Shown piece after piece: positions 5,737 to 8,700 of a DNA stretch of 21,775 nucleotides (its first letter is position 1; every line of letters starts with the position of its first letter). Both the position numbers and the translations under genes were made by a program. The notes beneath the pieces are model-generated. The model worked only from the letters and a program-made list of their open reading frames with translations, made no database searches and had not been told where the DNA came from. Source of the stretch: a virus (lineage: Duplodnaviria > Heunggongvirae > Uroviricota > Caudoviricetes); the IMG/VR virus record IMGVR_UViG_2565956731_000002. One strand, written 5' to 3'.

Positions 5737-8700
5737 ATGACCACTGTGAATAAAAAGTTAAAAAAAACTGCATCTGGCGCGATTACATGGTCGGTAATTG
5801 TTACCCAGATATTATCTCCAGTTTCTCTTTCTTTGATCCCAGCAAACAGTTTTGCATCATCTGGTAATAAAGATGTTACGCAAACTTATGCCAGCGATGA
5901 GCATGCAAATAAAGTGGCCTCATTTGCAGCAAGTGCAGGTCAGAGCCTGGCGAATAATAATGCAAGTAGTTTTGCTGTAAATACTTTATCAACTCAGGCG
6001 ACAAAAGAGGTCGTCGACTGGTTGCAACAATATGGCAATGCGCGCATCAAGCTTAATGTCGATGATTCTTTTTCCTTGAAGGATTCATCATTCGACTTTT
6101 TATATCCATGGCTGGATACTCAGGATTATGTGTTATTCAGTCAGACATCACTACATCGTACTGATGACCGAAATCAGACCAATATTGGTTTGGGGATTCG
6201 TCATTTCACTCCTGATAACGCAATGTTGGGTGCGAATGTTTTTTATGATTACGATTTAAGTCGCAGTCACTCTCGTGCAGGTTTTGGGGTTGAGTACTGG
6301 AGGGATTATTTCAGGCTTGGTGTAAATACCTATTTTGGTCTATCTGACTGGAAGAACAGTCGGGATATTGATGATTATCTGGAAAGACCTGCAAATGGCT
6401 GGGATTTTTCTGCTGAAGGATGGCTACCTGCTTATCCGCAATTAGGGGCATCTATTCAGTTTGAAAAATATTATGGTAAAAATGTCGGGTTATTTGGAAG
6501 CGATAACCTTCAGGAAAACCCTTACGCAGTTACTGGGGGAATTTCTTATACACCAGTTCCTCTGATTAAGTTTTCTGCACAGCATAAGCAAGGACAGAGC
6601 AACGTTCACGATACAACCTTCGGTGTTGAGTTTAATTATCGCCCGGGCGTTTCCCTGGCTGAACAGCTTAGCAGCGATAATGTTGCAGTTATGCGAGAAG
6701 TCCAGAATCGGCGTTATGATTTTGTTGAACGAAATAACAACATTGTTCTGGAGTACAAGAAGAAGCATGCACTGAAAATCAGTTTGCCAGAGTCTGTTCA
6801 GGGGGAGGGGGAATCAATCATCCCTGTAACACTGACAATCAACAATGCTAGTGGTGGTATCAAGTCTGTACAGTGGAATGATAGTGCATTCACTGCGGCT
6901 GGCGGCAAGATCAGTGGAAATGGCACATCATGGCAGATCACTTTACCGGCTTATAAAAGCGAAGGTGTAAATTCGTGGAATGTTGGAGCCACAGTCCAGG
7001 ATAACAGAGGCAATGTTTCCAACTATGCCGTTATGAATATCAGCGTTAATAATAGTGGTGTCTCGACAGCGGATTCATCTTTTACGCTGGATGGGGATTC
7101 GTCTCCGACGATCTCTGCTGATGGTCAATCCACTTATCCAATAGTATTAAGCCTGAAAGACAGTAACGGTAAGGCATTAACCGGACTGGCTGATGACATT
7201 GAAATGTCTGTGGAATTTACTGCGGATAGCAATAGTGCTCGACAGCGTGAAACGGTAACTGCTCCGTCATTAGGCGCGGTAGAGGAAATCTCTGCTGGTG
7301 TATATCGCTCTGTTCTGGCTGCTGGTTCGCAGGCTGGGACGGTACGTGTAACTGCAAAAGTTCAGGGAAAAACCTTTACTCTGAATATTAAGCAGGCAGC
7401 CGTTATTGATAGTGATGTATCGACAGCGGATTCATCTTTTACGCTGGATGGGGATTCGTCTCCGACGATCTCTGCTGATGGTCAATCCACTTATCCAATA
7501 GTATTAAGCCTGAAAGACAGTAACGGTAAGGCATTAACCGGACTGGCTGATGACATTGAAATGTCTGTGGAATTTACTGCGGATAGCAATAGTGCTCGAC
7601 AGCGTGAAACGGTAACTGCTCCGTCATTAGGCGCGGGAAATGGCACATCATGGCAGATCACTTTACCGGCTTATAAAAGCGAAGGTGTAAATTCGTGGAA
7701 TGTTGGAGCCACAGTCCAGGATAACAGAGGCAATGTTTCCAACTATGCCGTTATGAATATCAGCGTTAATAATAGTGGTGTCTCGACAGCGGATTCATCT
7801 TTTACGCTGGATGGGGATTCGTCTCCGACGATCTCTGCTGATGGTCAATCCACTTATCCAATAGTATTAAGCCTGAAAGACAGTAACGGTAAGGCATTAA
7901 CCGGACTGGCTGATAACATTGAAATGTCTGTGGAATTTACTGCGGATAGCAATAGTGCTCGACAGCGTGAAACGGTAACTGCTCCGTCATTAGGCGCGGT
8001 AGAGGAAATCTCTGCTGGTGTATATCGCTCTGTTCTGGCTGCTGGTTCGCAGGCTGGGACGGTACGTGTAACTGCAAAAGTTCAGGGAAAAACATTTACT
8101 CTCAGTATTAAGCAAACAGCAGCAACAGAACCTGATTCTGAGGTCAGTGCTGTTTTAACCGCTGCACCAGCAGAACAGGTAGTTGGTTACAATATCAATC
8201 TACAACTGGCAGTGAAGGATTCACAAGGAAATGCAATCACTGGTGATAACACTCTGAGCTTTTATGCTCTTAACCAGGCAGAAGGAGTCGAGTTTGGGAC
8301 TGTAACGGAAAAAGACGGTGTCTATAGCGCGACAGTAACTTCAAAACGAGCTGGTAAGATTACTATCGGTGTTAAATCTGATAGTCATGATTTCTCAGGT
8401 GTTAAGAAAGAAATCACCTTTATTGAGGACCGGCAGCAGGTTACATTCTCTCAGTTTGAAGCCAGCCAAAATAATGCATTGGCTGATGGAAAACAGAGAA
8501 ATATGGTAACTGTAAGCCTTGCGGACCGTTTCGGCAATGTTGTTCCTGGTTATGCTGTCACATTGTCTTTACCAGCAGGGATAACTCAAGTTGGTGGTGA
8601 ACATGCTGTTTCAACTGACGAAAATGGTAATGCTATTTTTGCGTTAATAAGCTCCACTCCGGGGTCTTACGTGATTACAGCTCATGCTGGTTCTCAGATG

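What the first reader, a model, noticed from the sequence alone, without database searches (positions are those of the whole stretch)
6916..8120. Recombination-prone, near-perfect repeat array inside the adhesin gene
Three copies of a ~217-bp unit lie at an exact 360-bp (120-codon) period (7060, 7420, 7780), and a ~485-bp block occurs twice (6916..7400, 7636..8120). Copies differ by only a few nucleotides, so the protein contains three identical ~72-aa stretches. This level of DNA identity implies very recent duplication or ongoing gene conversion, and gives a ready substrate for RecA-mediated gain or loss of Ig-like domains, changing the adhesin stalk length or antigenicity. It is also a likely site of assembly collapse or expansion.
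Basis: seen in the sequence. Interest (0 to 1): 0.6.

Follow-up and report, generated by a model that had tools for sequence, protein, structure and literature searches.

The report
Length-variable Ig-domain repeat in adhesin
A prophage-borne E. coli surface adhesin carries near-identical 357-bp Ig-domain repeats that number one to four in different strains, a known way for bacteria to change adhesin length; this window holds a one-off scrambled version found in no other genome searched.

Summary
The repeats are real, but they are not a 3 x 360-bp array. The layout is A-B-C-B-A-B-C. Three 217-nt B copies start at 7063, 7420 and 7783, spaced 357 and 363 bp. A 485-nt block (6916-7400) recurs 720 bp downstream.

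The gene (5737-10008) encodes an inverse-autotransporter adhesin in the nin region of a defective lambdoid prophage of E. coli UMEA 3489-1. Across public E. coli sequence the true repeat unit is a 357-bp (119-codon) Ig domain, present in 1, 2, 3 or 4 tandem copies (genes of 3552, 3909, 4266 and 4623 bp). Copy number differs between alleles whose flanks are identical. Units are also more alike within an allele than between alleles, which indicates concerted evolution.

The window's own allele is different. It equals a 2-copy allele plus 363 bp, joined by an in-frame non-homologous B->A junction at 7636/7637 that would make a hybrid Ig domain. That junction is absent from 5,426 complete E. coli genomes and three other collections, and the protein is a database singleton from a short-read draft. 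The junction is probably real. The block order is uncertain.

The parts
5737..10008 (+). Intact ORF of 1423 aa: an inverse-autotransporter (type Ve) adhesin. It has a signal peptide, an IAT beta-barrel (aa 57-334) and then about 10 Ig-like (Big_1/Invasin_D3) domains.
   Evidence: barrel aa 97-341 matches invasin 4e1t (1e-73) and intimin 4e1s
6760..7062 (+). First Ig-like domain (D00-like, aa 342-442). Its C-terminal half is segment A.
   Evidence: intimin D00-D0 6tqd aligns to aa 342-441
6917..7062 (+). Segment A, copy 1 (146 nt): the C-terminal half of the D00-like domain.
   Evidence: A1 identical to A2; weak Big_13 match to profile positions 61-100 of 102
7063..7279 (+). Segment B, copy 1 (217 nt, 72 aa): the N-terminal about 60% of the repeated Ig domain. 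Carries G at 7195 (Asp).
   Evidence: Invasin_D3 profile positions 2-50
7280..7419 (+). Segment C1 plus linker (140 nt): the C-terminal part of the Ig domain and the internal-unit linker. B plus C1/linker is the 357-bp population repeat unit.
   Evidence: Invasin_D3 profile positions 58-87
7420..7636 (+). Segment B, copy 2 (identical to copy 1).
7636..7637 (+). Novel in-frame B->A junction (GGCGCGG|GAAATGG) with 1 nt of shared sequence. It occurs only in this assembly.
   Evidence: absent
7637..7782 (+). Segment A, copy 2 (identical to copy 1). Together with B copy 2 it would encode a hybrid B-A Ig-like domain (aa 562-682).
7783..7999 (+). Segment B, copy 3. Carries A at 7915 (Asn), as in the last unit of the 2-copy allele of FDAARGOS_536.
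8000..8139 (+). Segment C2: the C-terminal part of the last unit. Identical to C1 up to 8093, then the last-unit-specific end.
10020..10040 (.). GC-rich hairpin with T-runs on both strands: a bidirectional terminator-like site between the adhesin gene and the convergent alpha/beta-hydrolase gene.

Best explanation
The gene encodes a prophage-carried inverse-autotransporter adhesin whose stalk contains a Periscope-type variable repeat. The repeat is a 357-bp (119-aa) Ig domain, nearly identical at the DNA level, that is gained, lost and homogenised by recombination or slippage between copies. Natural alleles therefore carry 1 to 4 copies. The mechanism is inferred; the outcome is shown. The window's allele is a derivative of the 2-copy allele. 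One non-homologous, in-frame join (end of B to start of A, 1-nt overlap) added 363 bp (A plus B). This created a third B copy, a second A copy and a hybrid Ig-like domain built from the N-terminal about 60% of the repeat domain and the C-terminal about 40% of the first Ig domain. The junction is probably real, but the order of blocks in this short-read draft is not secure. A plain tandem duplication of A+B gives the same length and the same k-mers up to k=133.
For: Gene identity: IAT_beta plus Big_1/Invasin_D3 domains and barrel homology to invasin and intimin structures. Context: the gene lies between phage P and ybcN/ninE/rusA/Q. Copy-number classes in complete genomes: 3552 bp (MCJCHV-1), 3909 bp and 4266 bp. 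A metagenome contig has 4623 bp. Protein lengths of 1302, 1420/1421 and 1540 aa appear. Of 54 metagenome or viral contigs, 30 have one unit, 23 have two and 1 has four. 475 of 5,426 complete genomes carry at least one internal unit junction, with 1 to 4 per genome. The window, L001 (1 copy), L005 (1 copy) and L012 (2 copies) have 0 differences in 3,067 nt of flanks. L066 (3 copies) and L034 (4 copies) differ by 1. Copy number varies within each of four allele lineages. Concerted evolution: paralogous units differ by about 4/311 nt, orthologous units of diverged alleles by 15.5-16.2/311 nt. The window equals the FDAARGOS_536 2-copy allele plus 363 bp and 1 SNP. The junction is in frame and the ORF is intact. 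Alternative block order. Periscope class definition, with inverse autotransporters included: PMC8201768 and PMC9704523.
Against: The B->A junction occurs in only one assembly. That assembly is a draft scaffold: the record carries a scaffold-type accession, and that it was built from short reads is my recollection of the Broad UMEA project, not shown by any tool here. The protein is a singleton among about 15 billion sequences. The window's length (4272 bp) is only 6 bp from the common 3-copy allele (4266 bp), so a misresolved repeat is conceivable. The exact block order in the window needs at least two mutational events from any observed allele. Foldability of the hybrid domain is unproven: single-sequence AlphaFold gave mean pLDDT 43.7, and the Pfam assignment of segment A is weak (E=0.016). 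No experiment shows that this protein is an adhesin or that length matters. Identical alleles shared by several strains (and 64/66) argue against very high switching rates.
Confidence: 0.75

Rival explanations
1. Assembly artefact. The isolate really carries an ordinary 2-copy (3909 bp) or 3-copy (4266 bp) allele, and the extra A-B piece and the B->A junction were created when the draft assembler resolved the repeat.
For: The junction and the protein are singletons. The source is a draft scaffold. The unit is a proven trouble spot for short-read assemblers, with orphan 357-nt and 335-nt contigs in many drafts. The length is within 6 bp of the 3-copy allele.
Against: B-end and A-start share only 1 nt, so no overlap or de Bruijn step could join them unless reads contained the junction. 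None of the native alleles supplies those k-mers. The join is exactly in frame and the flanking sequence is error-free relative to the 2-copy allele. The window contains no Ns.
Confidence: 0.2
2. The junction is real but the order is different. The true allele is X-A-B-A-B-C1/linker-B-C2, made by a single slipped tandem duplication of the 363-bp A+B segment in a 2-copy parent. The assembler then took the other path through the same graph.
For: This structure has the same length (4272 bp) and an open frame. Its k-mer set and multiset are identical to the window's for every k up to 133. It needs one event from the observed parent and explains the Asp/Asp/Asn pattern of the B copies. The window's order needs two or more events.
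Against: The deposited assembly states the other order. Merged short-insert read pairs longer than 134 nt could have resolved it, so the assembler may be right. I could not inspect the reads.
Confidence: 0.35
3. One reading: a regular array of three units with an exact 360-bp (120-codon) period.
For: Three near-identical 217-nt copies do exist, and their mean spacing is 360 bp.
Against: Identity at offset 360 is about 25%. The spacings are 357 and 363 bp. The sequences between the copies are unrelated to each other (C1/linker versus A). TRF finds no array. Natural variants differ by multiples of 357 bp.
Confidence: 0.02
4. A programmed, high-frequency contingency (phase or antigenic variation) switch rather than occasional recombination.
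For: Copy number differs between alleles with identical flanks, and units are homogenised.
Against: The same 2-copy and 3-copy proteins are shared unchanged by different complete genomes (and 64/66), and single proteins occur on hundreds of contigs. Differences between units are mostly synonymous. There is no dedicated recombinase or silent cassette next to the gene.
Confidence: 0.1

Closest known systems
Periscope Proteins (SasG/Aap, Rib/alpha C, Sgo_0707, CdrA; the class explicitly includes inverse autotransporters) - Whelan et al. 2021 PMC8201768; review PMC9704523
   Same: A single-chain surface protein whose stalk contains tandem, individually folding domains longer than 50 aa that are nearly identical at the DNA level. 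Repeat number differs between closely related strains. Intragenic recombination is the proposed mechanism, and short-read assemblies are known to be unreliable for such genes.
   Different: There are only 1 to 4 copies, a modest range. The variable block sits near the membrane-proximal end of a stalk otherwise made of diverged Ig domains. The gene is prophage cargo. The window's allele contains a non-homologous hybrid junction, which the class does not describe.
Yersinia ruckeri invasin-like inverse autotransporter with almost identical Ig domains (as cited in Goh et al. 2019, PMC6714894)
   Same: An inverse autotransporter whose passenger contains near-identical Big domains, flagged as prone to misassembly.
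   Different: Different species and gene. I did not compare the sequences.
E. coli inverse autotransporters FdeC (EaeH), YeeJ and IatA-D (Goh et al. 2019, PMC6714894; YeeJ PMC5595812)
   Same: The same secretion type (PF11924 barrel plus Big_1 passenger). The size is similar to FdeC (1,415 aa).
   Different: Those genes sit at conserved chromosomal positions, and that study found no tandem-repeat number variation in IatC or IatD. This gene lies in the nin region of lambdoid prophages, occurs in about 10% of complete genomes against 67% for fdeC, lacks LysM and a detectable C-type lectin domain, and does vary in repeat number.
Lambdoid prophage cargo genes ('morons') such as bor, lom and prophage porins
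   Same: An outer-membrane or surface gene with its own terminator, inserted between phage functional modules, here between P and the nin genes.
   Different: Much larger (3.5-4.6 kb) and internally repetitive. Not found in any of 50,697 deposited phage genomes.

Membership tests
Inverse autotransporter (type Ve secretion; intimin/invasin family) | Intimin/invasin-type 12-stranded beta-barrel domain (PF11924) N-terminal to the passenger | tested here: met
   IAT_beta aa 57-334, E=5.7e-101; aa 97-341 aligns with the invasin 4e1t (1.2e-73) and intimin 4e1s (8.8e-63) barrels
Inverse autotransporter (type Ve secretion; intimin/invasin family) | C-terminal passenger made of bacterial Ig-like (Big) domains | tested here: met
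   Big_1 (5 stretches) and Invasin_D3 (7 stretches) after the barrel; D00-like domain matches intimin 6tqd, and aa 912-1159 match invasin 1cwv
Inverse autotransporter (type Ve secretion; intimin/invasin family) | Surface display of the passenger and adhesive function | not testable with these tools
   No experiment was possible, and no paper on this gene was found
Periscope Protein | [quoted passage not shown] | tested here: met
   Multi-copy alleles have 119-aa units in tandem that differ by 0-12 of 311 nt. In the window itself, B-C1/linker (7063-7419) is followed directly by B.
Periscope Protein | Repeat number varies between related strains | tested here: met
   1, 2 and 3 copies in complete genomes and 4 in a metagenome contig, including alleles with identical flanks
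Periscope Protein | Repeats form an extended rod that sets the reach of a distal functional domain | tested here: inconclusive
   The single-sequence AlphaFold model had mean pLDDT 43.7 and is not usable
fdeC (eaeH) orthologue | Conserved chromosomal position, and presence in most E. coli (67% of complete genomes in PMC6714894) | tested here: not met
   The gene is in a lambdoid prophage nin region, and only 561 of 5,426 complete genomes have any match
Regular tandem array (VNTR) in this window | Head-to-tail copies of one unit at a constant period | tested here: not met
   Spacings are 357 and 363 bp, and the blocks between the copies are unrelated (C1/linker versus A); TRF reports nothing here

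The most novel reading that the evidence does not exclude
The B->A junction is real and the hybrid module folds. That module joins the first ~4 predicted strands of the repeated Big domain to the last ~3 predicted strands of the D00-like domain, at roughly equivalent positions in the two Ig folds. The allele would then be a natural snapshot of domain shuffling by illegitimate recombination inside a recombination-active adhesin stalk: a new Ig-domain variant arising in one step and immediately placed where homologous exchange can amplify or remove it.
Probability: 0.3. Interest if true: 0.45.

Novelty: new member of a known kind. Interest (0 to 1): 0.3.

Why it matters
The gene family is present in about one in ten complete E. 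coli genomes, including the pandemic ST131 lineage. It is annotated only generically, and I found no paper on it. Its stalk length varies in steps of one Ig domain, which marks it as a Periscope-type adhesin. That could change reach past O-antigen or capsule, or change exposure to antibody. There is also a practical point. Short-read assemblies of this gene are unreliable: they contain orphan unit contigs, and this window holds a unique scrambled allele. Gene-presence, allele-typing or vaccine-antigen surveys that rely on drafts will therefore miscount it.

Tried and rejected
1. An 80-nt probe across the B->A junction was uninformative, because the tool joined the two half-matches from normal alleles. 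A 50-nt probe whose halves are too short to seed replaced it and gave no match.

2. A protein search with a 90-aa junction peptide scored only 22 candidates, mostly fragments, and did not even return the window's own protein. It is not an exhaustive test for the junction. It did reveal collapsed-repeat contigs.

3. Single-sequence AlphaFold of aa 342-815 gave mean pLDDT 43.7, so it says nothing reliable about the hybrid domain. I did not use the second job. The only homologues that may be submitted are near-identical E. coli alleles, and they would not deepen the alignment.

4. A 720-bp tandem duplication of the 2-copy allele was rejected. It predicts 4629 bp and Asn upstream of the junction, and its k-mer multiset differs from k=21.

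5. Recombination at the shared GGAAAT motif near the B/C and X/A boundaries was rejected, because the junction lacks the intervening TAGAG.

6. Literature searches for this specific prophage adhesin found nothing.

7. The gene has no match in the collection of deposited phage genomes.

Full report
**What is in the sequence**

The window has one long ORF at 5737-10008 (+), 1423 aa. Self-comparison confirms near-perfect repeats but not the stated geometry.
- The real copies of the 217-nt segment, here called B, lie at 7063-7279, 7420-7636 and 7783-7999. They are spaced 357 and 363 bp. The first two are identical, and the third differs only at 7915 (A, versus G at 7195; Asn versus Asp).
- The 485-nt block 6916-7400 recurs at 7636-8120 with 479/485 identities. 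There is one mismatch up to 7373, after which identity decays.
- Tandem Repeats Finder reports no array here.

Read as blocks, the order is X-A-B-C1/linker-B-A-B-C2-Y. A (6917-7062) is the C-terminal half of the first Ig-like domain. B is the N-terminal 72 aa of the next Ig domain. C is that domain's C-terminal part. Two boundaries are native: A|B, and linker|B, where similarity fades gradually upstream. The B|A boundary at 7636/7637 is abrupt. The two parental contexts share only the single G at 7636, and the join is in frame.

**What the gene is**

Pfam finds an inverse-autotransporter beta-barrel (aa 57-334, E=6e-101) followed by multiple Big_1/Invasin_D3 domains. The barrel aligns with the solved invasin and intimin barrels. 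The first Ig-like domain (aa 342-441) aligns with intimin D00.

The window is part of scaffold KI669372.1 of E. coli UMEA 3489-1. The gene lies between phage replication gene P and ybcN/ninE/ybcO/rusA/Q of a lambdoid prophage. That prophage is defective:
- the integrase is split;
- IS elements are present;
- the O gene is truncated;
- a lysozyme fragment is fused to tail protein J.

About 10% of complete E. coli genomes (561 of 5,426) have a match. None of 50,697 deposited phage genomes does. It is not one of the six inverse autotransporters catalogued by Goh et al. (PMC6714894). Its prophage position and its prevalence both differ from fdeC.

**The population-level repeat**

Complete genomes carry the same gene at several lengths:

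| Gene length | Units | Genomes |
|---|---|---|
| 3552 bp | 1 | MCJCHV-1 (identical to the window apart from a 720-bp gap) |
| 3909 bp | 2 | FDAARGOS_536, strain 144, SK1144, CU568-3 |
| 4266 bp | 3 | AR_0104, CFIAFB20120266, ST131 strain 4224 |
| 4623 bp | 4 | one metagenome contig |

The step is always 357 bp (119 codons), equal to B plus C1/linker, which is one Ig domain.
- Among 54 metagenome and viral contigs that span the region, 30 have one unit, 23 have two and 1 has four. Short-read contigs may under-count.
- 475 of 5,426 complete genomes contain at least one internal unit junction, with 1 to 4 per genome.
- Protein lengths of 1302, 1420/1421 and 1540 aa dominate the protein database hits.

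**Recency and homogenisation**

Over 3,067 nt of non-repeat gene sequence, the window, L001 (1 unit), L005 (1 unit) and L012 (2 units) are identical. L066 (3 units) and L034 (4 units) differ by one base. Copy number varies within each of four allele lineages. Units within one allele differ by about 4 of 311 nt, whereas positionally equivalent units of diverged alleles differ by 15.5-16.2. That is the signature of concerted evolution, through unequal exchange, gene conversion, or contraction followed by re-expansion.

Identical 2-copy and 3-copy proteins are nevertheless shared by different strains (and 64/66). Change is therefore recurrent but not hyper-frequent.

These results meet the operational definition of Periscope Proteins: tandem repeats longer than 50 aa with at least 80% identity, and repeat number variable among strains. 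The class is stated to include inverse autotransporters (PMC8201768, PMC9704523).

**The window's own allele**

It equals the 2-copy allele of FDAARGOS_536 plus 363 bp and one SNP. The added material is one A and one B, joined through the B->A junction.

That junction was sought with a 50-nt probe in 5,426 complete E. coli genomes. It was also sought as an exact 33-mer in JGI metagenome contigs, IMG/VR and GTDB representative genomes. No match was found, while the native B|C junction was found in 61 contigs. The protein (WP_024008988.1) is a singleton among about 15 billion sequences.

B-end and A-start share only one base, so no assembler could join them without reads that contain the join. 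I therefore judge the junction to be real (about 0.75-0.8).

The order of blocks is less secure. The arrangement X-A-B-A-B-C1/linker-B-C2 is a single slipped tandem duplication of A+B. It has the same length and an identical k-mer spectrum up to k=133, and it needs one event rather than two or more.

Either way the protein would contain one hybrid module. B maps to Invasin_D3 profile positions 2-50. C1/linker maps to positions 58-87. A maps weakly to positions 61-100 of Big_13. The breakpoints therefore lie at roughly equivalent places in the two Ig folds. Whether the hybrid folds is unknown, because the AlphaFold model was too poor to use.

**Assembly hazard**

Draft E. coli assemblies contain orphan contigs of 357 nt (exactly one circularly permuted unit, 119 aa, 11 members) and of about 300-335 nt (up to 48 members). 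These are collapsed repeats.

**Verdict**

The locus is a recombination-active, length-variable Ig-domain repeat, but in 357-bp steps, and the window's third copy arose from a non-homologous join rather than from domain gain.

The phenomenon belongs to a known class, and this gene family appears to be an undescribed member. Interest is modest (0.3). The hybrid-domain allele is a curiosity that needs the raw reads or a long read to confirm.

Noticed in passing
window 4212-4324: Iteron-like tandem repeats of 19-23 nt (period 43 for pairs) lie inside the phage O replication gene (ORF 3894-4568, Phage_rep_O). This is the expected position of a lambda-type origin. The O gene is truncated or frameshifted, as annotated in the equivalent locus L001.
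   Followed up: partly
window 15485-19075: One ORF fuses an N-terminal phage lysozyme fragment (aa 34-83) to tail-tip protein J (from about aa 150). The whole head/tail morphogenesis block has therefore been deleted, and the prophage is defective.
   Followed up: partly
window 1-1127 (-) and 1284-3860: The lambda-type integrase is split into two ORFs (1-492 and 588-1127). An intact IS110-family ISEc21 (2456-3532) sits within IS3-family remnants (1284-2132 and about 3550-3860). In strain MCJCHV-1 the same spot also carries an IS30.
   Followed up: partly
window 13598-14680 (-): A prophage-borne OmpC/NmpC-like porin (Porin_1, E=2e-151) lies between the Q antiterminator (13011-13409) and the lysis genes. 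It is a second outer-membrane cargo gene in the same element.
   Followed up: no
window 10045-11088 (-); L003: An alpha/beta hydrolase (BD-FAE/Abhydrolase_3) is convergent with the adhesin gene and shares the hairpin at 10020-10040. It is absent from the otherwise equivalent prophage of strain 144 (L003), so the adhesin and the hydrolase are separate cargo insertions.
   Followed up: partly
window 7046-7636 versus L066 4675-5265: Between the window's lineage and the ST131-type 3-copy lineage, the repeat region differs by about 5% (31/591). The remaining 3,067 nt of the gene differ by 0.5% (15 sites), and most repeat differences are synonymous. The repeat cassette looks imported from a more distant allele, giving a mosaic gene.
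   Followed up: partly
complete genomes H1-H5 (e.g. NZ_AP022650.1 1305083-1309947): In five complete genomes the adhesin gene is interrupted by an IS3-family element (span 4865 bp, equal to the 1-copy gene plus about 1.3 kb). The gene is dispensable and is sometimes inactivated.
   Followed up: no
proteins P0003, P0009, P0010: Many draft E. coli assemblies hold stand-alone contigs of 301-357 nt that encode just the repeat unit. One of them is a 357-nt contig giving a circularly permuted 119-aa unit. These are direct evidence of repeat collapse in short-read assemblies.
   Followed up: partly
window 16001-18000: GC content rises to 57-61% within the J tail gene, against 43-46% in the adhesin gene. 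This shows the mosaic composition of the element.
   Followed up: no
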